Numbered from the stretch's first letter, positions 1 to 43,002 are shown. The stretch: 64,000 bases of DNA from Methylotenera sp. (GCA_031379885.1 JANNFN010000181.1:1605-65604), one strand, 5' to 3'. Notes: generated by a model from the letters alone, not told the origin. Program-made: numbers and translations.

Positions 1-138
1 ATCTTCTACTGCGTTAATGAAAAAGTAATCTTCTTTACTCATTTCATTTAGTTTGGCTACTTCTTCTTTAGCCACTTCGAAGTTAAGAAATGCATACTCT
101 AGTTCGTTTTGTTTGTTGATCACTTGGTAAATAGTCAT
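1..138 (-). CDS. small acidic protein, paralog P1 of an unannotated ~50-aa family (3' end runs off the window)
   Basis: Hand translation MTIYQVINKQNELEYAFLNFEVAKEEVAKLNEMSKEDYFFINAVED...; SD AAGGAG 6 nt before ATG; ungapped alignment with the ORFs at 1130, 6143 and 7083. Confidence 0.85.
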   Translation of the reverse strand, partial: MTIYQVINKQNELEYAFLNFEVAKEEVAKLNEMSKEDYFFINAVED

Positions 139-185
139 TTTGTCGCTCCTTAAATATTTAATTTAATTACCTACAGTAAATATTT

Positions 186-201
186 AGCAATTAGCAGACC
201 A
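186..201 (-). promoter_or_regulatory. putative sigma54 (-24/-12) promoter for P1
   Basis: Minus strand TGGTCTGCTAATTGCT (GG-N10-GC), 48 nt upstream of ATG; the adjacent TATTTAGCAA is identical to that upstream of P3. Confidence 0.55.
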
Positions 202-375
202 GCAATATGATTATTTAAATTTAGTGTTATATTTCAATAAGTTAAAATAAATTAATAGGTTTTTTGATGATAGTTTTGGGTGGGTTTTAGTTAAGTTTTG
301 TTCGAGAGTTCGACAGGACTGTGCAAATTTAGACAATTTGTACTAAATGCATACACAATTAACGTATATTCAGGC

Positions 376-412
376 TGCCCTGCAACCCAATATCCATGTG
401 GCTTGCAGGGCA
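376..412. repeat. 37-bp imperfect palindrome, copy 1 of a dispersed REP-like element; may also act as a terminator
   Basis: Reverse complement TGCCCTGCAAGCCACATGGATATTGGGTTGCAGGGCA matches 6559-6595 at 31/37 positions. Confidence 0.7.
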
Positions 413-468
413 GCCGTTTTTAGCTATTTAAACCCAAACGTGTTGTTTAAACTATTTGCGCTTGTGCA

Positions 469-885
469 TTAAGCTTTAGCTGCACTGAATAAGCGTGTAA
501 ATTCCATCTGATTTTTGCTAGAAGTGGAGCGGAATTTGGTTTTTAATAATTCTTGTGCGTATTCTTCATTGCCAATTTGGTGCTGCGTTAGTACCTCACC
601 CGCGCACAAATGTAGCTCTGCATGCACCTTACGCGCGGTTTCATATTCTGGTAGGTGACCATATAAATTTTTGCCTTCGTCATAAAGCCATTTGCCTATC
701 GCACATAAATTATCCTGTGATAGTTCCGTGATATCTAAATTCTCACGGCTCGTGCCATCCATCTCTTTTAGCAGTTTTTTCTTTAAAGCATGGTGCGTAT
801 CAAGTACGTATTTAAGATTAATGCCAGATAAAGCCTCTGGCTTTGGTTTGGTTACTTTTTTATCAAACCAATCTAATAATGCCAT
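469..885 (-). CDS. stand-alone CZB (chemoreceptor zinc-binding) domain protein
   Basis: 3His/1Cys pattern DTHH...LCAIGKWLY...VHAELH; start moved to ATG 885, which follows SD-like AAAGGA. Confidence 0.8.
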   Translation of the reverse strand: MALLDWFDKKVTKPKPEALSGINLKYVLDTHHALKKKLLKEMDGTSRENLDITELSQDNLCAIGKWLYDEGKNLYGHLPEYETARKVHAELHLCAGEVLTQHQIGNEEYAQELLKTKFRSTSSKNQMEFTRLFSAAKA

Positions 886-924
886 TTTAATTTCCTTTAA
901 CATGCTGAACTTTAGAAAGGTCAT

Positions 925-940
925 AGCAAAGGCTGTGCCA
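925..940 (-). promoter_or_regulatory. sigma54 promoter for the CZB gene
   Basis: Minus strand TGGCACAGCCTTTGCT, full match to TGGCAC-N5-TTGCW. Confidence 0.8.
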
Positions 941-1026
941 CGCGCGAATTAATTAGATAACTAATTGAATTTTAAAGATTAAATATTTATTTGTTGCTAA
1001 GAGCTGATGCTTAATAAAATTGAATG

Positions 1027-1043
1027 TGCACATATATGGTGCG
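1027..1043. promoter_or_regulatory. NtrC-like enhancer (UAS) candidate
   Basis: TGCACATATATGGTGCG, 14/17 to TGCACCAwwwTGGTGCA, ~90 bp upstream of the sigma54 site. Confidence 0.5.
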
Positions 1044-1129
1044 CGTGCACTGAGCCATGCTCAGATTATATTGGGATTAGCCCATTCCAGCTGTTCTTGC
1101 GTGGGTGAATTGCAGAACTAAAAGCTAGA

Positions 1130-1282
1130 TTAGTTAGCTTCTTTCGGTTCAACTTCTTCTACATGGTAAAAGTGTTTGTTATCCAACGCGCTTAAGTCTT
1201 GTGCGGCGCGCATAGCTTGCTCTATCTCTGCAAATTCGCAGTAGAGTTGGTTATCTTCATTTAATACTTGGTATATGTTCAT
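1130..1282 (-). CDS. 50-aa small protein, paralog P2
   Basis: MNIYQVLNEDNQLYCEFAEIEQAMRAAQDLSALDNKHFYHVEEVEPKEAN*; homologous to P1, P3 and P4. Confidence 0.85.
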   Translation of the reverse strand: MNIYQVLNEDNQLYCEFAEIEQAMRAAQDLSALDNKHFYHVEEVEPKEAN

Positions 1283-1319
1283 TTCACAGCCTTTTATGCA
1301 CTTTGCAGTGCTTAGTGCT

Positions 1320-1346
1320 ACATCGGCATGTTTTTTATAATCTTTA
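1320..1346 (-). promoter_or_regulatory. sigma28 (FliA)-type promoter for P2
   Basis: Minus strand TAAA-N15-GCCGATGT versus consensus TAAA-N15-GCCGATAA; 38 nt upstream of ATG. Confidence 0.75.
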
Positions 1347-1425
1347 GATAAAAAGCAGATTTATGGTGTAACCTTATTTAAAGCGGTTGATTAAAAAGTT
1401 AACGATTGAAAATGGGCACTAAAAA

Positions 1426-1608
1426 ATGATGAATAAAGAAACCAGCGATAGCGCAATCACCACGCTAACGCAGTTAGTTGAAAATACTTGCTTTTGTAAG
1501 CTGAGAGAAGCTTGTAGCGATAAAAATAGCAGTGAATGTATGCGACATAGAAATATTTATGCGGAATTTATGCAGCAAAAACGCGAAGAGCGTTCTCGCA
1601 AAGCCTAA
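1426..1608 (+). CDS. hypothetical 60-aa protein with four Cys
   Basis: ORF track; CFC...C...C cluster; no family recognised. Confidence 0.5.
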   Translation: MMNKETSDSAITTLTQLVENTCFCKLREACSDKNSSECMRHRNIYAEFMQQKREERSRKA

Positions 1609-1612
1609 CAAA

Positions 1613-1810
1613 TTAAGGGATACCAATGACTTTAAGGTATTCCTCCAGCGTGAGGGTTAGCTTTTCTATCGAGCTAGTGACTTCATCTAGATGCGTGTTT
1701 GAATCAAGATGCAGTTTCTCTAACAAGGCTTTGTGTTTTTCAATCGCTTCTGCATGCTCTTGAAACTTAGCGTTTTTTAAATCTTGTTTAGTCATTGCTG
1801 GTTTCTCCAT
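1613..1810 (-). CDS. hypothetical helical small protein
   Basis: ORF track; amphipathic helical composition; follows DUF3617 on the same strand. Confidence 0.55.
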   Translation of the reverse strand: MEKPAMTKQDLKNAKFQEHAEAIEKHKALLEKLHLDSNTHLDEVTSSIEKLTLTLEEYLKVIGIP

Positions 1811-1823
1811 AAGTAAGTGATCA

Positions 1824-2348
1824 CTATAACGGTTTTACCGTTCCACAGCTTGCATTAATCCACTTACCATTGATATCTGCCCGCTCGTTCACTGGGTTGC
1901 CTTGCGCCTCACCTTTGAAATTGGTTTGGCCAGAGAAACTTTCTGGGCTTGTAACGGCGCCTTCTGCGGTTCCATTGCCTTTCAGCTCTGCACTGTTACA
2001 AACAAAGTCCACTTTGTAGTTGTTACCGTTGCGGGTTGCATTTTGAGAAGTACAGCCTAATTCGGTTTGGTAAAAATTGGGTAGCGTTTTTTGATTGGCC
2101 ATTTCTTGCGTAATACAAGCATTGGATATGGCGGCGCCATTTTCAATTTGTGGCATATCTAGTCCGTAATCTTTGGCTAAATCTTTTATGTTTTTCATTT
2201 GATCTGGTGGTATATGCGGCGCTAATAGCAACAAATCGGATGTGGTTGTAATTTGCCATAACCCAGGTCGCATGTTGAGTTCTGCTGCGTTTGCAGCAGA
2301 GGCTAACAGTGAGAATAATAAAGTAACAACCATAAAGATTTTGCGCAT
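1824..2348 (-). CDS. DUF3617-family exported protein
   Basis: Signal peptide, MRPGLWQITT motif, Cys spacing CIT...C...C...C typical of DUF3617. Confidence 0.75.
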   Translation of the reverse strand: MRKIFMVVTLLFSLLASAANAAELNMRPGLWQITTTSDLLLLAPHIPPDQMKNIKDLAKDYGLDMPQIENGAAISNACITQEMANQKTLPNFYQTELGCTSQNATRNGNNYKVDFVCNSAELKGNGTAEGAVTSPESFSGQTNFKGEAQGNPVNERADINGKWINASCGTVKPL

Positions 2349-2827
2349 TGAAGCTCCTAGCAAATGTGTGACGTACTAATTTTTAGAGGGCGTTTTAGCC
2401 AGTTAAGTTCAGCAAGACTAAGTTTCGCACCATTGCTGTGCGCTTTGCTAGCACTTTGAGTTGTAATTTTTGAATACCAAAAGTGTAAATAATTCGGCTA
2501 TATGCCATCACTTACTTTTGCTTAAAAGTAAACTTTATTGTATGGCGTAAATTTGTAGCTTATCGCCTACTTATTATATTTAATAAACCAAACACACTAG
2601 AAACCATATGCGCCAAGTCTTATAAAGCCTTGTTCACAGCCATTTTACGGGCACCGAATAAATAATTTTTATTTATCATTGAGTGCGTTAACGCACAGAT
2701 ACCTTTCTATTCTTGCATTTAAATTGCAGCTGTCACTTGTAAAATATCTATCATAAGTTAATTTTTTACCTGAATTATCCGATATATAAGTAGGTTCTAA
2801 ATATTTGTTCAATAGCGCAGAACGACT

Positions 2828-2843
2828 TGGAACGGTAATTGCT
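2828..2843 (+). promoter_or_regulatory. putative sigma54 promoter for the trypsin-TPR protease cluster
   Basis: TGGAACGGTAATTGCT (GG-N10-GC); palindromes at 2683-2696 (GTGCGTTAACGCAC) and 2714-2728 (TGCATTTAAATTGCA) lie at enhancer distance. Confidence 0.6.
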
Positions 2844-2959
2844 TAATAGAATTACATAGTCGCATTTTTTGATTTAATTTTTAGTGTTAGTTTTAATTTT
2901 TTTGTGAGGTGTATCAAACTTAATATGTAGATTGGCGACAATCTAAATTGGAGGCCATC

Positions 2960-3985
2960 ATGACAAAGCTCTGCTTTACGTTTTATTCGGCTTTATTTTA
3001 TTTGTGTTTTGCAACTTCAACGTTGGCAGCGCCAACCGATGAACTGGTGCATCAACTCAATGCTCAAGTACTGCGTGTGCAGGTTGGGCTTGCAAATGGT
3101 AGCTACGGGCTTGGTTCTGCCGTGGTGATTGCAAAAGATCAAGTCGTTACTAATTGTCATGTTGTGGCTAATGCTAATAGTATTAATGTTGTTAACAACG
3201 GTGCGCCACTGGCTGTAACTGCCATCAAGCCAGATTGGCATCACGATTTATGTATTTTAAAAGTAGAAAACCTAGATGCGCCAGTTGCAAAAATTGGCTC
3301 GAGCAAAAATCTTAAGTACGAGCAATCTGTTTTTACCATCGGTTATCCCCATTTTCAGGCTGTGCCCAGTAGCACTTATGGCGTTGTAAAAGGCCTTTAC
3401 CCAATGGATGATAGCGTGATTATTCGCGCTACTAGCACTTTTGGGCTTGGTGCCAGCGGCGGCGGTGTGTTTGATGACGAAGGTAATTTGGTAGGGGTTA
3501 TTACGCTAAAAAGCCCAGGTAGCAATGCTTATTACTACAACATGCCGGTAGAGTGGGTGCAGGCGCTATTAAATAAGCCAGAACAGGCCGTTACCGCTAA
3601 AAGTGAACAACCTTTTTGGGCGGTATCATATGATAAATGGCCGTATTTCATGCAGGTTGTTCAACCATTTATCACCGAAAATTGGGATTCGTTATTACAA
3701 ATCGCGACTAAATGGACGGAGCAAGAGCCAAATACTTTGGAGTCTTGGTTCTACTTGGCAACGGCTGAATATGCTGCAAAGGATTTTGATCATGCAGAAG
3801 TGCATATGCAAAAAGTGGTGGCAATGAATCATCAGCATAGCCAAGCAATCTATTATTTAGGCTTGATGGCAGAAGCAAGCGGCAAGCATACTTTAGCTTT
3901 AACGAATGTTGCGCTGCTGAATAATTTAGATGAAACAGTCGCAACCCAACTTAAAGTTGCGATGGGAATGACAACAGCAGAGTAA
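2960..3985 (+). CDS. exported trypsin-like serine protease with C-terminal TPR (paralog 1)
   Basis: Catalytic triad TNCHV / HDLC / GASGG; TPR-like helices; signal peptide; SD GGAGG before ATG 2960. Confidence 0.85.
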   Translation: MTKLCFTFYSALFYLCFATSTLAAPTDELVHQLNAQVLRVQVGLANGSYGLGSAVVIAKDQVVTNCHVVANANSINVVNNGAPLAVTAIKPDWHHDLCILKVENLDAPVAKIGSSKNLKYEQSVFTIGYPHFQAVPSSTYGVVKGLYPMDDSVIIRATSTFGLGASGGGVFDDEGNLVGVITLKSPGSNAYYYNMPVEWVQALLNKPEQAVTAKSEQPFWAVSYDKWPYFMQVVQPFITENWDSLLQIATKWTEQEPNTLESWFYLATAEYAAKDFDHAEVHMQKVVAMNHQHSQAIYYLGLMAEASGKHTLALTNVALLNNLDETVATQLKVAMGMTTAE

Positions 3986-4053
3986 CTATGCGCACATTCG
4001 GAACTTAAGTTATTTGACTTACTCATACGGTAGTCAATAATTTAGGAACGACT

Positions 4054-4587
4054 ATGCGTGTACTAGCTGGAGTAATTTTAATGTTGTTATCCCCACTTTC
4101 TGCTTTAGCCGACGAATGCCCCGCGCTACTTAATCATCAGTTTAAAACTTTGCAGGGTGAGTCTATTAACCTGTGCGATTATCGCGATAAGCCGATTTTA
4201 GTTGTGAATACCGCCAGCAAATGTGGATTTACCCCGCAATTTGAAAAACTGGAAGGCATGTACAGCCAATATAAAGACAAAGGCTTACTGGTGATTGGAT
4301 TTCCTTCCAACGATTTTCGCCAAGAGTTAAAAAACGATTCCGAAATTGGTAGTTTCTGTAAACTCACGTATGGCGTGAAGTTCCCCATGGTGACAAAAAG
4401 CTCAGTCAGCGGCCCAAACACTAATCCATTTTATAAAGAGTTAATTGCTGCAAGCGGACAGGCGCCAAAATGGAACTTTTATAAATATGTGATTACCCCA
4501 GGCGGCAAATCAGTGCAGAGTTTTGCTAGCACTACGCAACCAGATGACCCTGCTATTATGAAATTGATTGAGCCGTATCTTAAATAA
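4054..4587 (+). CDS. exported Cys-type glutathione peroxidase family protein
   Basis: VNTASKCGFTPQ, FPSNDF and KWNFYKY motifs; signal peptide. Confidence 0.9.
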   Translation: MRVLAGVILMLLSPLSALADECPALLNHQFKTLQGESINLCDYRDKPILVVNTASKCGFTPQFEKLEGMYSQYKDKGLLVIGFPSNDFRQELKNDSEIGSFCKLTYGVKFPMVTKSSVSGPNTNPFYKELIAASGQAPKWNFYKYVITPGGKSVQSFASTTQPDDPAIMKLIEPYLK

Positions 4588-4618
4588 ACTAGAAACACAA
4601 AATAGAAATGTGAATGCG

Positions 4619-5677
4619 ATGAATATAAATAAGTTTTCTTTGTGCTTTTTGTTGCTGAATACGATTGCAAGTGCTGGCGCCCAGGCTACCGTTTTGGTGG
4701 AGCCAACGGATGAGTTTTTACATAACTTAAAACAATCGATGGTAAAAATTGGTACTACCACTAAATCTGGTGGGCATGGTTTTGGTACTGGCATTGCAAT
4801 TAGTAAAGATCAGGTCGTAACTAACTGTCATGTGGTAAGTAACGCTAACGGGATTTCTATCAGCAAGTGGGGTACGGAATATCCTGTGGATTCTTTACAA
4901 GCAGATTGGAAACACGATTTGTGTATTCTTAAGGTGGAATATGCAGATTTGAAGCCAGTGACGATGGGCGACTCTTCAAAACTCAGTTATGAGCAGCCTA
5001 TTATCTCAATCTCTATGCCTAACGATTCACCTGCGCCTTATGTAGCGTTGAGCACCATTAAAGCGCTTTATCCATTAGACTATGTAGAAGTGATTCGTAC
5101 CCAAGCGGCATTTTCAATAGGCGCGAGCGGTAGCCCAATATTTGACTACGATGGCAAATTAATAGGCGTAAGTACGTTTAAAAGTCCAGGCAAAAAAGCC
5201 TATTTTTATAATATGCCAGTTAATTTGGTGAAAGCAGTCATGCAAACTCCGCTGGTGAAGTTAAATTCACAACATGATTTGCCATTTTGGGATGCGCCCG
5301 ATGAAGCCCGACCATTTTTTATGCAGATTGTGTTGCCCTTTCAAAATAATCGCTGGCAAGATGTTCAAAAAGTGGCCAGTCATTGGGTAGAAAAAGAGCC
5401 TAGCAATGCAGAAGCTTGGTATTACATGGGTGAAGCTGCGCAACATCTGGGGAACGGGCAAGCAGCAGCAATGCATTATCAAAAAGCATTAAGTTTGCAC
5501 CCAAACCACCCTGCCACATTGCAAGCTACTGCGTTACTGGCGCAAAAAGAGGGTAAGCAAGCAGAGACAAACAAAATTCGTTTAACACTAAAAGAAATTA
5601 ACCCAGAGCTTTTGGAAGATTTGGACAGCGCCGCGCAGGCGGAGTGCCTAGCATCCAGTAAAAGCGCTGAATGTTAA
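4619..5677 (+). CDS. exported trypsin-like serine protease with TPR (paralog 2)
   Basis: TNCHV / HDLC / GASGS triad; TPR region EAWYYMG...ALSLHPNH. Confidence 0.85.
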   Translation: MNINKFSLCFLLLNTIASAGAQATVLVEPTDEFLHNLKQSMVKIGTTTKSGGHGFGTGIAISKDQVVTNCHVVSNANGISISKWGTEYPVDSLQADWKHDLCILKVEYADLKPVTMGDSSKLSYEQPIISISMPNDSPAPYVALSTIKALYPLDYVEVIRTQAAFSIGASGSPIFDYDGKLIGVSTFKSPGKKAYFYNMPVNLVKAVMQTPLVKLNSQHDLPFWDAPDEARPFFMQIVLPFQNNRWQDVQKVASHWVEKEPSNAEAWYYMGEAAQHLGNGQAAAMHYQKALSLHPNHPATLQATALLAQKEGKQAETNKIRLTLKEINPELLEDLDSAAQAECLASSKSAEC

Positions 5678-5686
5678 GAACTCCAC

Positions 5687-6106
5687 ATGAAACGGCTGCT
5701 AACATTTGGCTTACCAATATTGGCAATTATTACCATGGCTATATATCGGTATGAGGATATGGGCGCTGAAAATCTATCGCAACAAATTTCGAAGCTAGAA
5801 AAAATTGGTGATGAATGTGATCTGATTGCAGAAAAGGCTGCGATGCACTTGCCCGAAGCGTTGCCATTTCAAAAATTAGAAAAGGCTGGAAGGCGAGCAA
5901 GGGTGCTAGAAGATTGTATGCATGATAGAGCTTACTTAGAAAACCCTGCTTGGACTAAGTTTGCAAAGCCAGAGGCACAAAAAAATGCGCAAACTCAGCA
6001 CATATCTTACGATGAGGCATATGAAGCCTTAAGGCGCATGAGCATGCTAGCGTTTAAGACGACTAAAGGTGAGCCGTTATATTGGGTTCAGGCTAAAGCT
6101 AATTAG
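5687..6106 (+). CDS. hypothetical membrane-anchored protein
   Basis: N-terminal hydrophobic segment, two Cys; 9 nt after the protease stop. Confidence 0.65.
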   Translation: MKRLLTFGLPILAIITMAIYRYEDMGAENLSQQISKLEKIGDECDLIAEKAAMHLPEALPFQKLEKAGRRARVLEDCMHDRAYLENPAWTKFAKPEAQKNAQTQHISYDEAYEALRRMSMLAFKTTKGEPLYWVQAKAN

Positions 6107-6142
6107 TTAAAGCGGCTGGTGCAATATTAAACCAGAAATACA

Positions 6143-6292
6143 CTACTTATCTTCGAACTCTACTGCCTCAACGTAAAAATAATGATCTTCTTGGCTCTCG
6201 TTGAGCATTTCAACTTCCTGTGTAGCATTTTGTAAGGTGAGAAATGCATAAATCGGACGATTTTGCTCATTCATTATTTGATAAATGGTCAT
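6143..6292 (-). CDS. 49-aa small protein, paralog P3
   Basis: MTIYQIMNEQNRPIYAFLTLQNATQEVEMLNESQEDHYFYVEAVEFEDK*; SD AAGGAG; closest to P1. Confidence 0.85.
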   Translation of the reverse strand: MTIYQIMNEQNRPIYAFLTLQNATQEVEMLNESQEDHYFYVEAVEFEDK

Positions 6293-6345
6293 ATTGCGCT
6301 CCTTAAATCTTCATTAATAATCTCGTACTATACTTAAACTTATTT

Positions 6346-6361
6346 AGCAAAAATCAAGCCA
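6346..6361 (-). promoter_or_regulatory. putative sigma54 promoter for P3
   Basis: Minus strand TGGCTTGATTTTTGCT (GG-N10-GC), 54 nt upstream of ATG. Confidence 0.65.
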
Positions 6362-6468
6362 AAAAATTCAATTGATTCAATAACTTATTTAAAATATATA
6401 ACTCAATTATTATTCATTGGGTTACTTATTACATTTAAGGTAAATTCTAGAAATGTACCAGGTACTTA

Positions 6469-6485
6469 TGCATCAAATTTGTGCA
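6469..6485. promoter_or_regulatory. NtrC-like enhancer candidate for P3
   Basis: TGCATCAAATTTGTGCA, 15/17 to TGCACCAwwwTGGTGCA, ~110 bp upstream of the sigma54 site. Confidence 0.55.
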
Positions 6486-6558
6486 GGCTTGCGAATATTG
6501 CAATCAATTGATGACATTTCTATGTATTTTTAGGCGATATAAAAACTTAATATATAGA

Positions 6559-6595
6559 TGCCTTGTAAGCCTCATGGATACTGCCTTGCAGGGCA
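6559..6595. repeat. 37-bp REP-like palindrome, copy 2
   Basis: TGCCTTGTAAGCCTCATGGATACTGCCTTGCAGGGCA, 5 nt after the stop of the 6601 gene. Confidence 0.7.
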
Positions 6596-6600
6596 TCCAT

Positions 6601-6993
6601 TTAGATAGCCTTAATCTCACTTTTAATCACGTTGATAACACCGGCAAAAATCATGATGTATTCCACAATTAAAAGCATAAAAAGTTTATCTTCTGGGGCG
6701 CCTGTAAGCGTGGTTAATGTCAGCGAGAGTGCATTGATGACAACGCTAATTAAAATAATGAGACCTATTAATTTGTTTCTTAAGCCAAAAAGATAAAATG
6801 GGGCTATAAAACTCAAGCCAAAAAGTGTTTGAACATCAATGCCACCGTTGATGTTTTTATTGGCGAGATTGAGCGCAATATACAAGATAATCAGTAAGCA
6901 AGCGGCAGGTAGCTTTGTTGGCATGCCTGCGCCATTATGTTTTAATCCAAGCGCAAGCCAAGCATGAGTCAATATTGCAGCAATCAGTTTCAT
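6601..6993 (-). CDS. hypothetical integral membrane protein (~4 TM)
   Basis: Hydrophobic segments; start moved to ATG 6993 after SD GGAGG. Confidence 0.7.
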   Translation of the reverse strand: MKLIAAILTHAWLALGLKHNGAGMPTKLPAACLLIILYIALNLANKNINGGIDVQTLFGLSFIAPFYLFGLRNKLIGLIILISVVINALSLTLTTLTGAPEDKLFMLLIVEYIMIFAGVINVIKSEIKAI

Positions 6994-7082
6994 TTCAGCC
7001 TCCGAATACACTTGTAAAGCGCATTTAGCGCGCATTAATCTACACAAATACCTTGAGGATGCTTATTCTGAAATCTTACAAA

Positions 7083-7232
7083 TTAGGCCAATTCCAGTGC
7101 CAGCTCTTCTACATGGTAGTAGTGTTCATCATCCCAAACGGTAAGATCTAGCGCGCAATCCAAGGCGTGATCTAAATCTGAATATTCACGATACAGTTTG
7201 TTTTCTTCATTAAGTACTTGGTAGATTTTCAT
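7083..7232 (-). CDS. 49-aa small protein, paralog P4
   Basis: MKIYQVLNEENKLYREYSDLDHALDCALDLTVWDDEHYYHVEELALELA*; SD GGAGG; closest to P2. Confidence 0.85.
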   Translation of the reverse strand: MKIYQVLNEENKLYREYSDLDHALDCALDLTVWDDEHYYHVEELALELA

Positions 7233-7271
7233 CTGACACCTCCTTAATAATCTTAAGTAGCGTTAAGTATT

Positions 7272-7298
7272 ACATCGGCATGTTTGAAATAAACTTTA
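7272..7298 (-). promoter_or_regulatory. sigma28 (FliA)-type promoter for P4
   Basis: Minus strand TAAAGTTT-N11-GCCGATGT, 40 nt upstream of ATG; same motif as upstream of P2. Confidence 0.8.
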
Positions 7299-7593
7299 GA
7301 TTAAAAGCAAAAATGATGCTTATTTATTAGTTTGGTTTATATGGCTTTCAACTTGTGTAAGTAGGGTGTAACGATAAGCTGACATTATTTTTAATTCATA
7401 TTTGTTGCTACATTCAGACAATGTTCACAACTCACAATATATAAACGCCCTATGTTATTGACGCAAAGAGGCATTTTGTGCGAGTATGAAAAACCTAGGC
7501 AATGTACGGACAGTGCGTATATGGAATTATTTGTCTTCGCCCAAGCGCGACTGAATGAATGATGATCGTTTACAAGGAGAACAGAACTTGAAA

Positions 7594-7683
7594 ATGACGA
7601 TACAACAGTATATTGAGGGGTTTAATCGCCCTGTGTGCCTGAGAGGTTATCAGGCCTTGGAATTTAAGCTTGAGTCTGCTTAA
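7594..7683 (+). CDS. possible 29-aa ORF directly upstream of the AsmA-like gene
   Basis: MTIQQYIEGFNRPVCLRGYQALEFKLESA*; AAGGAG upstream, spaced best for an in-frame TTG at 7588. Confidence 0.35.
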   Translation: MTIQQYIEGFNRPVCLRGYQALEFKLESA

Positions 7684-7701
7684 AGCTTAAACCACATAAA
7701 G

Positions 7702-10700
7702 ATGGATTTATCAGTCGTTTACAGTAAAACTGCTAAAGGGTTGCGCGCGCGCGCTTCTCTCCTCGGCGGCTTGCCCTCACATTTGATGAAGGTGCTTACG
7801 CACGTTGATGGCATATCAAAAGCCGAATCAATTCTCATTAAATTTGACGAAATTACCGAACACAAATTGATTGTAGCTTTGAATCTGCTTGAAAGGGAAG
7901 GCTACATCAAGCCAGTCATGGTGACTGTGCCTAGTGAAAATGATTGGGCACCAGCCACAATTTTCGCTCCCATGGAAGTTGAGGAGTTTGAAAATGTAGA
8001 AGAAGTTGAAGTCAAAGCCAAAGAAAACGCACAGCTACAAGCTGAGCGTAAAGCGCAGGCAGAAGAAGAAGCACGTCAGCAGGCCGAAATTAAGGCAAGA
8101 GAGAAAGAAGAACAGGCACTCGAAAAAGCGAAAATTAAAGAAAAGCTAAGAGCCGAAGCGAAAGTGAAGGCGCAGTTAGAGGCTGATCGCATCACTCGCG
8201 AAAAAGAAGAGGCGCGAAAAAAAGCGGAGGCAGTAGCTCATGCTAAAGCCGAAGAAGAGGCGCGAATCCAAGCAGAACAAAAAGCTAAAGCTGCAGAAGA
8301 AGCGCGACTGAAGGCTGAGGCAGAAGCAAAGGCTAAAGCAGAAGAAAAAGAGCATGTGCGCCGTGAAATAGAGCGTATCTCACGCGAAGCAGAAGCAGAG
8401 CATAAAAAAGCTGAAGACGAAGCGCATGCCAAGGCAGCTCTTAAAGCGCGTGAGGAACTAGAACAGGCGCATGCCAAAGCGATGGAAGAAGCACGATTAC
8501 AGGCAGAACGCGAAGCTAAAGAGATTGAGGAAGCGCGTTTGCAGGCCGAACTTAAGGCGCGAGACGAAGCAGAAAAGGCACATGCCAAGGCAGAAGCGGA
8601 AGCAAAAGAGAATGCGCGTCGTGAATTAGAACGCATTGGTCGAGAAGCTGAAGAAGCGCAAAGAAAAGCAGAGGCCGAAGCTATCGCTAAGGCAGAAGCA
8701 GAAGCGAAACTAGAAGCCGAACGCAAAGCTAAGGCAGAAGAGAAGGCGCGACTGAAGGCGGAAGCTGAAGAAAAAGCTGAAGCAGCAGAACAAGCAAAAA
8801 TAGAAGAGAAGGAAAAGGCAAGACTTGAAATAGCACGTATTGTTCGTGAAGCAGAGGAAGCACGCAAAAAATCTGAAGCTAAGGCTAAAGAAACTCGTTT
8901 GGAAACTAAGCGCAAAGCGAAAGCAGAGCAAGAGGCGCGCCTGAAGGTAGAGCGCAAGCCAAAAGCTGAGGTAAAGCAAGCAATTACAAAGACAGCGCTA
9001 GAGGAAGAAGCTAGCGTAGATGCAAATTTAAATGCTCGCCTTGAAATGGAGCGCTTTGCTCTTGAGGCTGAAGAGGGGCGAAAAAAATCTAAAGCTGAAG
9101 TCCGCGCCAAAGCCGAAGAGGCAGAAAGTAAAGCACAGGCAGAAGCAGCGCTGATTCGTGCTAAAGCTGAAGAACAGGCTAAAGCAGATGCGAAAGAGAC
9201 TTCGCGCTTAGAAATGGAACGTATCAGCCGTGAAGCAGATGAAGTGCGGAAAAAACAAAAAACTGAAGCCCACACTAACATTGAAGTAGCACTAATCAGT
9301 GAAACCAAAGGGCGATCATGGGAAGAAATTGAAGAAGAGGAAGAAAGAGCCTTTAAAGAAGAAGAAAGAGCTTTCGAAGAGGAAGGGCATGCCACAAAGG
9401 AAGATGATGTAGAGCGTGTGATTGAGAAAATAACCCGGCAAGAAGCAGAAAGGCTGGAGCGTGAGGAAATTAAACTCCAAGCGAAGGAAGAGGCCGAGAC
9501 TCTTGCCAAAGTTCAAGCCAAAATATTACTAAGAAGCATCAACTACAGGAAGTGGCTTTCAAGAGCTGGCAAGGCTATTAAGCCAATATTGGTTTATCTG
9601 CCGCTAGTGATTATATTGCTAATTGGGGTGCTGCATCTGATTAACCTAAGTATGTTGGTTGCACCTATCGAAAAGCTTGCCTCCGAGAGTGTAGGTGAGC
9701 AAGTAACCATCGAAAAAGTTTATGCATCGCTATGGCCTCAACCGCATCTTGAGTTAGGGAATGTGAGGATAGGTGTCAACTCTAGCTTAAAAATTGAGAC
9801 AGTAAATATTTCCCCAGTTACTTCAACGCTATTCCAAGAAGTCAAAATGTTGAACTCGCTTGAGCTCGAAGGAATGAAATTCACTCAGGACAATTTTGGG
9901 CAGCCTTTGCAATGGATAAATAGTTTAGGTAAGGCTGAGCATTTGAAGGTTGATCAGATAAATTTGAAAAAAGCTGTTATCCAGATTCGTGATCTCGAGT
10001 TTGGCACTTTTAGCGGTAAAGTCGAACTTACTGAAGCACGAGAACTTAAAAATATCGATTTGATTAGTGCAGAGCAAACACTTTCAGTTCAGGTAACGCC
10101 ACAAGGTAGCAATTTTGATGTTATGTTGACTGGTACAGATTGGCACTTGCCGGTAAATCCAAAATTTGTGTTTAATGAACTTAAAGCTAAGGGAACATTA
10201 AGTCAAAACCAGATTATTTTCAGCCAAATCGAGGGCAGTATTTATGGAGGAACAATCAAGGGCAAGGCGGCCGTCGATTGGTCAAGTGAATGGTCGACTG
10301 CAGGCAATTTTGAGCTATTTAATGCCACATTGCCGCAAATGCTCAACGCCTTTGGCAGCAGCGCTTCTATTGATGGTAAGCTTGCACTGACTGGGATTTT
10401 TTCTTGCAGATCACCACAAGCTATTAATTTGGTAGATTCTCCAGAAATTACAGCAAATTTCGAGCTGCATGATGGCAAAATAAATGATATTGATTTGGCG
10501 CGAGCCGTGCTATTTAAAGGTAGTCAGTCACTGGTTGGTGGCGCAACGCATTTTGACAAATTTACTGGCGGCTTACAGCTTAAGAGTGGATATTATCAGT
10601 ATAAGCAGCTAGTGCTGGAAACTAATCAATTTCACGCTAAGGGAAATTTGGATATTCTTCCGAATCAGGAGGTTTCTGGAAAGATTAGTGCCAATCTAAC

Positions 10701-10770
10701 AGCACAATCACGTCGCTTATATGCTAACTTTAATTTAGCTGGCAAGGCTGGGGACATTAAGCGGCAGTAA
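7702..10770 (+). CDS. large membrane protein: small N-terminal domain, Ala/Glu/Lys-rich coiled coil, TM helix, AsmA-like C-terminal region
   Basis: Long TolA-like EAKAKAE repeats; one hydrophobic segment (ILVYLPLVIILLIGVLHLI); C-terminus with G.I.GIDL...T.F..L.G pattern typical of AsmA-like proteins. Confidence 0.75.
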   Translation: MDLSVVYSKTAKGLRARASLLGGLPSHLMKVLTHVDGISKAESILIKFDEITEHKLIVALNLLEREGYIKPVMVTVPSENDWAPATIFAPMEVEEFENVEEVEVKAKENAQLQAERKAQAEEEARQQAEIKAREKEEQALEKAKIKEKLRAEAKVKAQLEADRITREKEEARKKAEAVAHAKAEEEARIQAEQKAKAAEEARLKAEAEAKAKAEEKEHVRREIERISREAEAEHKKAEDEAHAKAALKAREELEQAHAKAMEEARLQAEREAKEIEEARLQAELKARDEAEKAHAKAEAEAKENARRELERIGREAEEAQRKAEAEAIAKAEAEAKLEAERKAKAEEKARLKAEAEEKAEAAEQAKIEEKEKARLEIARIVREAEEARKKSEAKAKETRLETKRKAKAEQEARLKVERKPKAEVKQAITKTALEEEASVDANLNARLEMERFALEAEEGRKKSKAEVRAKAEEAESKAQAEAALIRAKAEEQAKADAKETSRLEMERISREADEVRKKQKTEAHTNIEVALISETKGRSWEEIEEEEERAFKEEERAFEEEGHATKEDDVERVIEKITRQEAERLEREEIKLQAKEEAETLAKVQAKILLRSINYRKWLSRAGKAIKPILVYLPLVIILLIGVLHLINLSMLVAPIEKLASESVGEQVTIEKVYASLWPQPHLELGNVRIGVNSSLKIETVNISPVTSTLFQEVKMLNSLELEGMKFTQDNFGQPLQWINSLGKAEHLKVDQINLKKAVIQIRDLEFGTFSGKVELTEARELKNIDLISAEQTLSVQVTPQGSNFDVMLTGTDWHLPVNPKFVFNELKAKGTLSQNQIIFSQIEGSIYGGTIKGKAAVDWSSEWSTAGNFELFNATLPQMLNAFGSSASIDGKLALTGIFSCRSPQAINLVDSPEITANFELHDGKINDIDLARAVLFKGSQSLVGGATHFDKFTGGLQLKSGYYQYKQLVLETNQFHAKGNLDILPNQEVSGKISANLTAQSRRLYANFNLAGKAGDIKRQ

Positions 10771-27325: not shown

Positions 27326-28843
27326 ATGACCACGAAAAATGCTGATATTGGCCTAGTTGGCCTTGCTGTGATGGGGCAAAATCTAGCCCTAAACATTGCC
27401 GATCATGGCTATACCATTGCGGTATACAACCGTGACCCTAAAAAAATGACTAACTTCATTAAGGAGTGCAAAGCTAATGAGCCGTCACATGCTAATGTGG
27501 TGGGGCATGCTGATTTAGCATCATTTGTATTGAGCATTAAGCGTCCGCGCAAGATCGTGTTGCTTGTTAAAGCTGGTAGCGCAACTGATGTAACGATTAA
27601 CGCATTGCTACCTTTCTTAGAGCAAGGCGACATTATTATTGACGGTGGTAATTCATTGTGGACGGATACAATTCGTCGCGAAAAAGAGCTGGCAGTGAAG
27701 GGCATCGATTTTATCGGTTCTGGCGTATCTGGTGGCGAAACTGGCGCACGTTTTGGCCCAAGCTTAATGCCTTCAGGTACACGCAAAGCATGGGCCAGTT
27801 TAGAGCCTATTTGGCGCGATATCGCTGCAAAAGTGAATAACGAGACAGGCGAACCTATGGAGGGTGGCAAGCCAGGCAAGCCAGTTGTGGGTGGTTTCTC
27901 TTGTGCAGAATATATTGGTCCGGATGGTTCAGGCCATTACGTAAAAATGGTGCATAACGGTATTGAATATATCGATATGCAATTGATCTGCGAAGCTTAC
28001 TGGCTTATGAAAAACTTGCTTGGTATGCCTGCAGATGAAATTGGTAAGGTGTTTGCTGAGTGGAACAAAGGGGCGCTGTCTAGCTTCTTAATTGAAATTA
28101 CCGCCGATATTCTGAAACAAAAAGATCCGATGACTAAAGGCTTCTTGGTGGATCAAATTTTAGATACTGCAGGCCAAAAAGGCACAGGTCAGTGGACAGC
28201 GGCAAATGCGCTTGAGTTGGGCGCACCAGCCAATGCGATTGCGGCAGCAGTTTATGCACGTGCACTTTCAAGCTTAAAAGAAGAGCGTGTAGAAGCCAGC
28301 AAAATCTTAAAAGGCCCAGAAGTAACCAAAGTGACGGGCGACAAAAAAGAAATTATCGAAGCGATTAAAAATGCGTTATATTGCTCAAAAATTTGTGCCT
28401 ATGCGCAAGGCTTCCAATTGATTGATAAGGCACAAGTGGCTTATAACTGGAAATTAAACTTTGGTGAGATTGCCCAAATTTGGCGCGGCGGCTGTATTAT
28501 CCGTGCTCGTTTCTTGCAAAAAATCACCAACGCTTATGCACTTAACTCGCGTTTGAAAAACTTGATGCTAGATCCATATTTTACTAACGCAATGAACGAA
28601 GGCCAAGCTGGTTGGCGCAAGGTTATTGCCTTGGCAGTAACTAACGGTATACCAGCGCAGGGTTTTAGTGCTGCACTTGCTTATTATGATGGGTATCGCA
28701 GTGCTGATTTGCCAGCTAATTTATTGCAAGGCCAGCGTGATTACTTTGGTGCGCATACCTATGAGCGTAAAGATCAGCCGCGTGGTCAGTTCTACCACTT
28801 GGATTGGCCAGAAGCAAAGCGCCCACAGCTGTTAATTGAATAA
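27326..28843 (+). CDS. gnd: NADP-dependent 6-phosphogluconate dehydrogenase
   Basis: [29 protein letters not shown] motifs. Confidence 0.95.
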
Positions 28844-42986: not shown

Positions 42987-43002
42987 AGCAAAGCACGTGC
43001 CA
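42987..43002 (-). promoter_or_regulatory. sigma54 promoter of glnK-amtB
   Basis: Minus strand TGGCACGTGCTTTGCT, full consensus; NtrC-like site TGCACTAATTCGGGGCA at 43213-43229. Confidence 0.88.

What the first reader, a model, noticed from the sequence alone, without database searches (positions are those of the whole stretch)
1..7298. Unannotated family of four ~50-aa paralogous proteins, all below the ORF-track cutoff
Seen: four minus-strand ORFs (1-138 partial, 1130-1282, 6143-6292, 7083-7232) align without gaps to the consensus MxIYQ[VI]xN[EK]xN-x5-[FY]-x5-A-x6-L-x6-[HD][FY][FY]x[VI]. Three have a clear SD. P1/P3 form one pair and P2/P4 another. They are scattered over 7 kb among unrelated genes, and more copies may lie left of the window. 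Inference: the beta-beta-alpha-beta hydrophobic pattern suggests a compact folded domain acting as an adaptor or modulator, not a disordered peptide. I do not recognise the family.
Basis: partly seen in the sequence, partly recalled or inferred. Interest (0 to 1): 0.85.

Follow-up and report, generated by a model that had tools for sequence, protein, structure and literature searches.

The report
Methylophilaceae small acidic protein family
The four ~49-residue genes are real, selected members of an uncharacterised protein family found only in Methylophilaceae, and its two branches carry promoter motifs for two different alternative sigma factors (flagellar sigma-28 and sigma-54), although what the proteins do is still unknown.

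Summary
Four minus-strand ORFs of 49-50 aa align without gaps, and the 2.35-Mb assembly holds no further copy.

They are real genes:
- 45 clusters at 90% identity and 32 at 50% identity exist in public data, nearly all 44-68 aa.
- No copy has an internal stop in 54 of 201 Methylophilaceae genomes. No genome from other families of the order has a copy.
- dN/dS among orthologues is 0.0-0.3.

No Pfam, NCBIfam, PHROG, PADLOC or PDB family matches. The best fold neighbours are the anti-CRISPR AcrIC9 (not significant) and unnamed small phage proteins.

New findings:
- P1 and P4 each precede a paralogous 130-aa orphan membrane protein. This pairing holds for all M copies of the window's genus.
- The P2/P4 branch carries a textbook sigma-28 (FliA) promoter. 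The same motif precedes flgM, fliC and flhD in this genome.
- 26 of 27 genomes with such a copy encode FlhA, and the one exception holds a frameshifted copy.
- The P1/P3 branch carries a sigma-54 promoter, with an NtrC-like enhancer at a fixed distance.

Function is inferred only: probably small cytoplasmic binding modulators made under motility and nitrogen-type programmes.

The parts
1..138 (-). P1, small acidic protein of the sigma-54 branch (type A). The full gene is 49 aa; its last 3 codons and stop lie just left of the window. It is followed, after about 165 nt outside the window, by the membrane-protein gene M1.
186..201 (-). Sigma-54 type -24/-12 promoter of P1: TGGTCTGCTAATTGCT (GG-N10-GC), 47 nt before the ATG.
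   Evidence: conserved in all type A orthologues
309..325 (-). Conserved upstream element of P1, TGCACAGTCCTGTCGAA, 123 nt upstream of the -24 element. This is the same position as the NtrC-like palindrome of the P3 group, but only the left half fits that consensus.
1130..1282 (-). P2, 50-aa small acidic protein of the sigma-28 branch (type B), with a weak SD.
1320..1346 (-). Sigma-28 (FliA) type promoter of P2: TAAAGATT-N11-GCCGATGT, 37 nt before the ATG.
6143..6292 (-). P3, 49-aa small acidic protein of the sigma-54 branch (type C). This is the copy whose structure was predicted.
6346..6361 (-). Sigma-54 type promoter of P3: TGGCTTGATTTTTGCT, 53 nt before the ATG.
6469..6485 (-). NtrC-like palindrome TGCACAAATTTGATGCA (9 of 10 matches to TGCAC-N7-GTGCA), 124 nt upstream of the -24 element of P3.
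6601..6993 (-). M2, 130-aa orphan membrane protein with five predicted helices. It starts 89 nt downstream of P4 and is a paralogue (64% identity) of M1 downstream of P1.
7083..7232 (-). P4, 49-aa small acidic protein of the sigma-28 branch (type B), first gene of the P4-M2 pair.
7272..7298 (-). Sigma-28 (FliA) type promoter of P4: TAAAGTTT-N11-GCCGATGT, 39 nt before the ATG.

Best explanation
P1-P4 are genuine, selected genes for a Methylophilaceae-restricted family of ~49-residue, strongly acidic (pI about 4.1), cytoplasmic single-domain beta-beta-alpha-beta proteins. An old duplication split the family into two branches that carry different alternative-sigma promoter motifs. The P2/P4 branch lies behind a FliA (sigma-28) late-flagellar promoter and is kept only in genomes that keep flagella. 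The P1/P3 branch lies behind a sigma-54 promoter with an NtrC-type enhancer about 123 nt upstream, and it persists without flagella. In the window's genus (Methylotenera-like) a copy of either branch heads a pair with a 130-aa orphan membrane protein. Inferred, not shown: the proteins have no catalytic features and are too small for anything but binding, so they most likely act as on-demand binding modulators of a cellular partner. One paralogue would be made during motility and another under nitrogen-type signals. The co-transcribed membrane protein is a candidate partner in Methylotenera.
For: Reality of the genes:
- The HMM finds four copies at E<=1e-24 and nothing else in the genome.
- 45 clusters at 90% identity and 32 at 50% identity, nearly all 44-68 aa.
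- 97 hits in 54 of 201 family genomes, with no internal stops.
- Orthologue pairs show for example 10 synonymous against 1 non-synonymous change, 17 against 3 and 11 against 3, giving dN/dS 0.01-0.3.

Fold and charge:
- pLDDT 93.9 with E-E-H-E topology.
- 10-13 acidic against 2-4 basic residues.

Sigma-28 motif:
- TAAAG(T/A)TT-N11-GCCGATGT lies 37-39 nt before P2 and P4.
- The same motif lies before flgM, fliC and flhD in this genome; those genes were confirmed by Pfam.
- fliA and rpoN are present.
- The motif is conserved at 33-67 nt before 30 copies in 27 genomes.
- 26 of those 27 genomes have FlhA (Fisher p 3e-8). The exception, G124, has a frameshifted copy.

Sigma-54 motif:
- GG-N10-GC elements lie before 32 copies.
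- The motif is validated in this genome by glnK, amtB and pilin genes.
- A match of 8 or more of 10 to TGCAC-N7-GTGCA occurs in 14 of 32 upstream regions, 11 of them at -122 to -125. Shuffles give 0.6 on average.
- amtB has the same kind of site.

Tree: a sigma-54 clade (28 of 31 rows) against a sigma-28 clade, with 9 label changes against 32 in shuffles.

Pairing with the membrane protein: every M copy found in the window's genus (8 copies in 6 genomes) directly follows a small gene. The same pair occurs in L001 and L004 with 24-25 nt gaps.
Against: The promoters are motif matches. They are supported by conservation and phyletic pattern, not by mapped transcription starts.

The phyletic correlation is not corrected for shared ancestry. 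It does hold inside the window's genus: the small family is present in 6 of 7 FlhA-positive genomes and 2 of 11 FlhA-negative genomes.

About a third of copies (31 of 93) show neither motif. These include Methylophilus-type copies and a genus-g16 group.

The enhancer of the P1 group fits the NtrC consensus only in its left half.

The membrane protein M is absent from 33 of the 54 genomes that hold the small family. It is unlinked to the small gene in the genomes of other genera sampled, so it cannot be the universal partner.

Nothing tested here bears directly on binding or on any partner.
Confidence: 0.6

Rival explanations
1. The P2/P4 branch has a dedicated flagellar or chemotaxis role, for example as a late-stage assembly factor, motor or stator modulator, or FliA/FlgM-circuit component. 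The sigma-54 copies would be a diverged offshoot with another role.
For: The sigma-28 promoter is shared with flgM, fliC and flhD. Copies of this type are found almost only in FlhA-positive genomes, and one has decayed in a genome without FlhA. A CZB (chemoreceptor zinc-binding) domain gene lies between P2 and P1.
Against: No copy lies inside a flagellar or chemotaxis gene cluster in the loci examined. 74 of 100 FlhA-positive genomes lack a sigma-28-type copy, so it is not a core flagellar part. The sister branch persists in genomes without flagella. The family is absent from flagellated relatives outside the family.
Confidence: 0.2
2. The proteins are domesticated phage-type small acidic proteins that act as DNA mimics or anti-defence factors, like the anti-CRISPR AcrIC9.
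For: The best PDB fold neighbour is AcrIC9: TM 0.66-0.68 normalised to the query, 25-26% identity, Foldseek probability 0.57-0.84. Many unnamed small phage proteins share the fold at TM 0.8-0.9. The proteins are strongly acidic. The weakest relative, P0139, sits in a phage-like run of small genes beside a transposase.
Against: The Foldseek E-values are about 1 against PDB and at least 0.01 against the viral library, for a very simple fold. There is no sequence match to any PDB chain, PHROG or defence model. The copies sit in a conserved chromosomal neighbourhood (trypsin-like protease, GSHPx, DUF3617, DUF1993) across genera, with no integrase or tRNA context. Regulation by host sigma-28 and sigma-54 and vertical inheritance do not fit a mobile anti-defence gene.
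Confidence: 0.07
3. The small protein and the membrane protein M form an obligate two-component module, for example a regulator plus channel or a toxin-antitoxin-like pair. Unpaired copies would be spare or decaying.
For: Small-then-M pairs with gaps of 24-165 nt occur in every M-bearing genome of the window's genus and in L004. 21 of 22 genomes with M also have the small family. In three genomes the order is sigma-28 promoter, small, small, M.
Against: 33 of 54 genomes with the small family have no M. In the genomes of other genera sampled, M is unlinked to the small gene and lies in unrelated contexts. Unpaired copies are under the same purifying selection. M matches no toxin, holin or channel family or fold.
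Confidence: 0.12
4. The ORFs are not translated and the conservation belongs to an RNA or a regulatory DNA element.
Against: Substitutions between orthologues are mostly synonymous. The frame is intact in 97 hits. A conserved SD and ATG are present. Conservation follows the amino-acid pattern of a confidently predicted fold. There is no Rfam match.
Confidence: 0.02

Closest known systems
Anti-CRISPR AcrIC9 (PDB 8hjj, 8g9t)
   Same: It is a small, strongly acidic, single-domain protein. It is the best PDB fold neighbour: TM 0.66-0.68 on the query, 25-26% identity over 47-48 columns.
   Different: AcrIC9 is 70 aa and phage- or MGE-borne. The match is not significant (E about 1) and there is no sequence homology. 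The family here is chromosomal, vertically inherited, multi-copy and under host alternative-sigma control. It is not a member.
Unnamed ~50-60-aa phage proteins with the same fold in BFVD (e.g. Streptomyces phage Ibantik A0A2U8UNK8)
   Same: They share the beta-beta-alpha-beta topology and size, with TM 0.8-0.9.
   Different: Identity is 10-29%, E is at least 0.01, and all are uncharacterised. No PHROG matches. This is a resemblance of a very simple fold, not evidence of common descent or function.
Late (class III) flagellar regulon genes of unknown function under FliA, such as E. coli flxA (from general knowledge)
   Same: They have a sigma-28 consensus promoter and non-structural small products, and they are not needed to build a flagellum.
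   Different: There is no sequence or size similarity. The family here has a sister branch under sigma-54 and is confined to one bacterial family.
Condition-specific small protein modulators: the anti-adaptors IraP/IraM/IraD of E. coli, and the nitrogen-regulated small proteins sP26/sP36 of Methanosarcina mazei (from general knowledge)
   Same: The idea is the same: tiny soluble proteins, each made under a different regulon, act by binding a larger target.
   Different: This is analogy only. There is no homology, and no target is known here.

Membership tests
Any curated protein family (Pfam-A, NCBIfam, PHROGs, PADLOC) | Score above the family's cut-off, or at least a significant E-value | tested here: not met
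   The best Pfam hits are at E 0.007-0.09 and far below cut-off. NCBIfam and PADLOC give nothing. PHROG hits are at E of 0.06 or more.
AcrIC9 anti-CRISPR | Detectable sequence homology to AcrIC9 | tested here: not met
   A profile of 40 family members against all PDB chains gives no AcrIC9 hit at E<=10.
AcrIC9 anti-CRISPR | Significant structural match | tested here: inconclusive
   TM is 0.66-0.68 on the query but only 0.49-0.50 on the target, with Foldseek E 1.1-2.9.
AcrIC9 anti-CRISPR | Location in a phage, prophage or mobile element, often with an aca gene | tested here: not met
   The copies lie in a conserved chromosomal neighbourhood across genera, with no mobile-element genes in the window's first 12 kb or in the related loci.
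FliA (sigma-28) regulon, for P2 and P4 | TAAA-N15-GCCGATAA-type promoter at a suitable distance upstream | tested here: met
   TAAAGTTT-N11-GCCGATGT matches 14 of 16 positions, 39 nt before P4. TAAAGATT-N11-GCCGATGT matches 13 of 16, 37 nt before P2.
FliA (sigma-28) regulon, for P2 and P4 | The same motif precedes known late flagellar genes of the same genome, and fliA is present | tested here: met
   The motif precedes flgM, fliC and flhD. fliA is at C190:51489-52154.
FliA (sigma-28) regulon, for P2 and P4 | Promoter conserved in orthologues, and the gene lost together with flagella | tested here: met
   30 copies in 27 genomes carry the motif, and 26 of those 27 genomes have FlhA. The one without FlhA has a frameshifted copy.
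FliA (sigma-28) regulon, for P2 and P4 | Transcription depends on FliA | not testable with these tools
   This needs RNA from a fliA mutant.
Sigma-54 / NtrC-type regulon, for P1 and P3 | -24 GG and -12 GC elements with 10-nt spacing upstream of the gene | tested here: met
   TGGCTTGATTTTTGCT lies before P3 and TGGTCTGCTAATTGCT before P1. The element is conserved before 32 copies. The motif also precedes glnK, amtB and pilin genes in this genome, and rpoN is present.
Sigma-54 / NtrC-type regulon, for P1 and P3 | Upstream enhancer resembling the NtrC site TGCACC-N5-GGTGCA | tested here: inconclusive
   P3 and its orthologues match 8-10 of 10 positions at -122 to -125 (11 of the 14 regions that reach 8 of 10, against 0.6 in shuffles). 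P1-type copies keep only TGCACAG...TGTCGAA at the same position. Which enhancer-binding protein acts is not known.
Sigma-54 / NtrC-type regulon, for P1 and P3 | Induction under nitrogen limitation that depends on rpoN or ntrC | not testable with these tools
   No expression data were available.

The most novel reading that the evidence does not exclude
The two branches are condition-specific versions of one small binding module that act on a common, still unknown cellular target. One version would be issued by the flagellar programme (FliA) and the other by a nitrogen-type sigma-54 programme. The family would then couple motility and nutrient status in methylotrophs through a new class of micro-regulator, with the orphan membrane protein M as one receptor.
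Probability: 0.12. Interest if true: 0.7.

Novelty: new variant of a known kind. Interest (0 to 1): 0.5.

Why it matters
Small proteins below annotation cut-offs are a poorly charted part of bacterial genomes. This is a clean case: a folded 49-residue domain under purifying selection, confined to one family of environmentally important methylotrophs, with no model in any family library. The useful handle is regulatory. The two ancient branches carry promoter motifs for two different alternative sigma factors. That gives testable conditions (motile cells, nitrogen limitation) and mutants (fliA, rpoN, ntrC) in which to look for expression and phenotype. If they prove to be modulators, they would add a new lineage-specific layer to the flagellar and sigma-54 regulons. 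If not, the family still deserves a family model so that annotation pipelines stop missing or mislabelling it.

Tried and rejected
- Family libraries: Pfam, NCBIfam, PHROGs and PADLOC gave nothing significant for the small proteins or for M.
- PDB sequence search: a profile search found only a de novo design and a dynein fragment at chance level.
- Fold searches: against PDB, AcrIC9 came top at E about 1. Against the viral library there were many unnamed small proteins. For M there was no match with TM above 0.45.
- Exhaustive representative search: no fusion of the domain to a larger protein. The three long hits are unrelated repeat proteins.
- Rfam on 1-8000: only a sub-threshold SraB hit inside M2.
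- Gene neighbourhood as a functional clue: the recurrent neighbours are a trypsin-like/TPR protease, its 139-aa partner, DUF1993 and a QSregVF_b protein. They look like conserved local synteny among housekeeping genes. The proteases carry signal peptides whereas the small proteins do not, so no link was claimed.
- M near flagellar genes in other genera: rejected, because its neighbours there are PEP synthase, GSHPx and a sigma-54 response regulator.
- The JGI name 'Ni2+-binding GTPase' on two members: judged a misannotation, because the proteins are 47 and 49 aa, far too short to be a GTPase.
- Literature searches found nothing on the family.
- Earlier-findings look-ups returned nothing.


Full report
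**Observation**

They align without internal gaps, with M1, I3, Y4, Q5, N8, N11, A23 and L30 invariant.

The window is C66:1605-65604 of a 2.35-Mb, 194-contig assembly with 43% G+C. P1 is complete in the assembly: 49 aa, with three more codons left of the window.

An HMM of the four, run against every six-frame piece of the genome, recovers them at E 9e-25 to 3e-27. The next hit is at E 0.06. There are therefore exactly four copies, and none lies further left on the contig.

P1, P3 and P4 have AAGGAG before the ATG. P2 has only AAGG.

**They are real genes**

- A word-indexed search of 5.8 billion proteins finds 45 clusters, nearly all 46-53 aa. They are called 'hypothetical protein' where named, and one comes from a Methylotenera MAG.
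- An exhaustive HMMER pass over 1.84 billion representatives finds only 32 clusters. All are 44-65 aa except three unrelated repeat proteins.
- In whole genomes, 54 of 201 Methylophilaceae (12 of 41 genera) carry 1-5 copies. That is 97 hits, none with an internal stop.
- In a sample of 301 genomes of the order, nearly all from other families, the only matches were the window's own genome and one other Methylophilaceae genome. Named records are Methylotenera, Methylophilus and Methylophilaceae MAGs.
- Nei-Gojobori counts on orthologous pairs give mostly synonymous change: 10 against 1, 17 against 3 and 11 against 3. This corresponds to dN/dS of 0.01-0.3. Values near 0.7-0.9 appear only between branches, where synonymous sites are saturated.
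- There is no Rfam match.

**Fold**

AlphaFold2 on P3 alone gives mean pLDDT 93.9, with strands 2-7 and 13-17, helix 20-33 and strand 40-45.

The proteins are very acidic: 10-13 D+E against 2-4 K+R, with pI about 4.1-4.3. They have no signal peptide or hydrophobic segment.

Conserved hydrophobic residues fall on both faces of the strands (I3/Y4/V6, Y15/Y17, the HYYHV or FSINAV strand). Conserved polar residues (Q5, N8, N11, E45, E47) lie in the hairpin and tail. I read this, by inference, as a binding or oligomerisation surface.

Fold neighbours are uninformative. AcrIC9 heads the PDB list at TM 0.66-0.68 but E about 1. The viral library gives many unnamed 50-60-aa phage proteins at TM 0.8-0.9 and E of at least 0.01. 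No PDB chain, PHROG or defence model matches by sequence.

**Surroundings**

P4 is followed after 89 nt by a 130-aa membrane protein, M2 (6601-6993). P1 is followed, just outside the window, by its 64%-identical paralogue M1.

The same small-then-M pair, with gaps of 24-25 nt, occurs in a Methylotenera MAG that is syntenic with the window and in an ENA contig.

All M copies found in the window's genus (8 copies in 6 genomes) directly follow a small gene. In three of those genomes the order is promoter, small, small, M.

The link is lineage-specific:
- M occurs in only 22 of 201 genomes, and 21 of these also hold the small family.
- In the genomes of other genera sampled, M is unlinked to the small gene and sits in unrelated contexts.
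- 33 genomes have the small family without M.

M is itself an orphan. It has five predicted helices at pLDDT 90 and an invariant H..L....LKH.G.GMP...PA motif. It has no family or fold match.

Other recurrent neighbours (trypsin-like/TPR protease, its 139-aa partner, DUF1993, GSHPx, DUF3617) look like conserved local synteny.

**Promoters: the main new result**

Upstream regions of orthologues from many genera show two conserved architectures.

*P2/P4 branch.* These copies have TCTAAAG(T/A)TT-N11-GCCGATGTAAT 33-67 nt before the ATG. This is the textbook sigma-28/FliA consensus TAAAGTTT-N11-GCCGATAA (established knowledge).
- In this genome the same motif stands before flgM, the flagellin gene and flhD. 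All three genes were confirmed by Pfam.
- fliA lies beside flhA on contig C190.
- Across the 201 genomes, 30 copies in 27 genomes carry the motif, and 26 of those genomes encode FlhA (Fisher p 3e-8).
- The single exception, G124, holds a frameshifted copy.
- Inside the window's genus the small family is present in 6 of 7 FlhA-positive genomes and 2 of 11 FlhA-negative genomes. Those two carry only the other branch.

*P1/P3 branch.* These copies have a GG-N10-GC element (TGGCTTGATTTTTGCT, TGGTCTGCTAATTGCT) 41-65 nt before the ATG.
- The same motif precedes glnK, amtB and two pilin genes here, and rpoN is present.
- At a fixed position 122-125 nt upstream of the -24 element, 11 of the 32 upstream regions match TGCAC-N7-GTGCA in at least 8 of 10 positions. 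Counting any position, 14 of 32 do so, against 0.6 on average and at most 3 in shuffles.
- amtB and the neighbouring CZB gene have the same kind of site.
- P1-type copies keep only the left half of the palindrome at that position, so the identity of their activator is open.
- Sigma-54-type copies show no association with FlhA: 17 of 27 genomes, p 0.15. This fits a flagellar cascade headed by FlhDC rather than by sigma-54.

*Tree.* A maximum-likelihood tree of 70 distinct members splits into a clade of 31 rows (28 with the sigma-54 motif) and a clade of 39 rows (17 with sigma-28, 20 with no motif, 2 with sigma-54). Promoter class needs 9 changes on the tree, against 32 in shuffles. With only 50 columns, support is limited: the basal split has SH-aLRT 91.

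About a third of copies show neither motif. Some are second genes of an operon. Methylophilus-type copies share a different upstream palindrome, TGATGTCATCA, of unknown meaning.

**What it most likely is**

Shown: a real, selected, folded, acidic 49-residue protein family restricted to Methylophilaceae, with four copies here.

Well supported but indirect: the two branches are transcribed from sigma-28 and sigma-54 promoters respectively, and the sigma-28 branch is retained only with flagella.

Inferred:
- The proteins act by binding. They have no room for catalysis, and conserved residues lie on both sheet faces.
- They would be made on demand under the motility programme and under a nitrogen-type sigma-54 programme.
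- In Methylotenera the co-transcribed membrane protein M may be a partner.

Rivals considered:
- A dedicated flagellar role for the sigma-28 branch is the strongest rival.
- An obligate small+M module is contradicted by the many genomes without M.
- A phage-derived DNA mimic or anti-defence role rests only on a non-significant fold match and acidity. It fits neither the chromosomal, vertically inherited context nor the host-regulon control.
- A non-coding element is excluded by the substitution pattern.

**Comparison and novelty**

No defining feature of any known family is met except those of regulon membership by promoter. That says when the genes are likely expressed, not what the proteins do.

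Lineage-restricted small proteins of unknown function are common. The fold is simple and widespread among small phage proteins. I therefore rate this a new family of a familiar kind rather than something categorically new.

Its interest lies in the clean evidence for selection and fold. It also lies in the split of one tiny family between two alternative sigma factors, which makes the function directly approachable.

Literature and earlier-findings searches returned nothing relevant.

Noticed in passing
window 469-885 (-), promoter 925-940, palindrome 1028-1042: The gene between P2 and P1 encodes a stand-alone CZB (chemoreceptor zinc-binding) domain protein. It has its own sigma-54 promoter, TGGCACAGCCTTTGCT, and an NtrC-like site, GCACCATATATGTGC. 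The listed ORF start at 924 is probably too far upstream; MALLDW at 885 fits the promoter.
   Followed up: partly
window 7702-10770 (+): This is a 1022-aa protein whose first half is about 500 residues of highly charged EAKAKAEEEAR-type repeats. These are followed by a transmembrane segment and a large C-terminal domain. The gene is divergent from P4.
   Followed up: no
window 6601-6993 (-) and genome C66:1038-1427 (-): The M family is a 130-aa membrane protein restricted to Methylophilaceae (63 clusters). It has invariant H10, H19, G21, G23, P25, P29, R72, E111 and N121, a confident five-helix model, and no Pfam, PHROG, PADLOC or PDB-fold match. It is an orphan family in its own right.
   Followed up: partly
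genome contig C185, about 27516-27542 (-): A perfect sigma-28 consensus, TAAAGTTT-N11-GCCGATAA, lies about 480 nt upstream of flhD. This suggests FliA feedback on the flagellar master operon in this organism.
   Followed up: partly
loci L023-L025, L027, L037 (Methylophilus-type genomes): Copies beginning MTMYQVMDEENHCIATF lack both sigma motifs. They share a conserved palindrome, TGATGTCATCA, about 40 nt before the ATG. The regulator is unknown.
   Followed up: no
locus L098 (G124:C94:2800-4000): A sigma-28-type copy is split by a frameshift: the N-terminal 24 residues are in one frame and ...WYTDHYYHVQE in another. The genome is 98% complete and has no FlhA.
   Followed up: yes
window 2948-3985 (+), 4054-4587 (+), 4568-5677 (+), 5687-6106 (+): Two paralogous secreted trypsin-like proteases with C-terminal TPR repeats flank a glutathione peroxidase gene. 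They are followed by a 139-aa membrane-anchored protein. The protease plus 139-aa pair recurs next to small-family genes in several genera.
   Followed up: partly
proteins P0004 and P0044: JGI names these two family members (49 and 47 aa) 'Ni2+-binding GTPase involved in maturation of urease and hydrogenase'. This cannot be right for proteins of this size and looks like annotation spill-over.
   Followed up: no
protein P0139, JGI metagenome contig: The most distant relative (E 9e-4, 56 aa) lies in a run of overlapping small genes beside a DDE transposase. This hints that the fold, or even the family, also circulates on mobile or phage-like DNA.
   Followed up: no
window 42987-43002 (-): A canonical sigma-54 promoter, TGGCACGTGCTTTGCT, lies 54 nt before a PII (GlnB/GlnK-type) gene. 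It served here as an internal control for the motif.
   Followed up: partly
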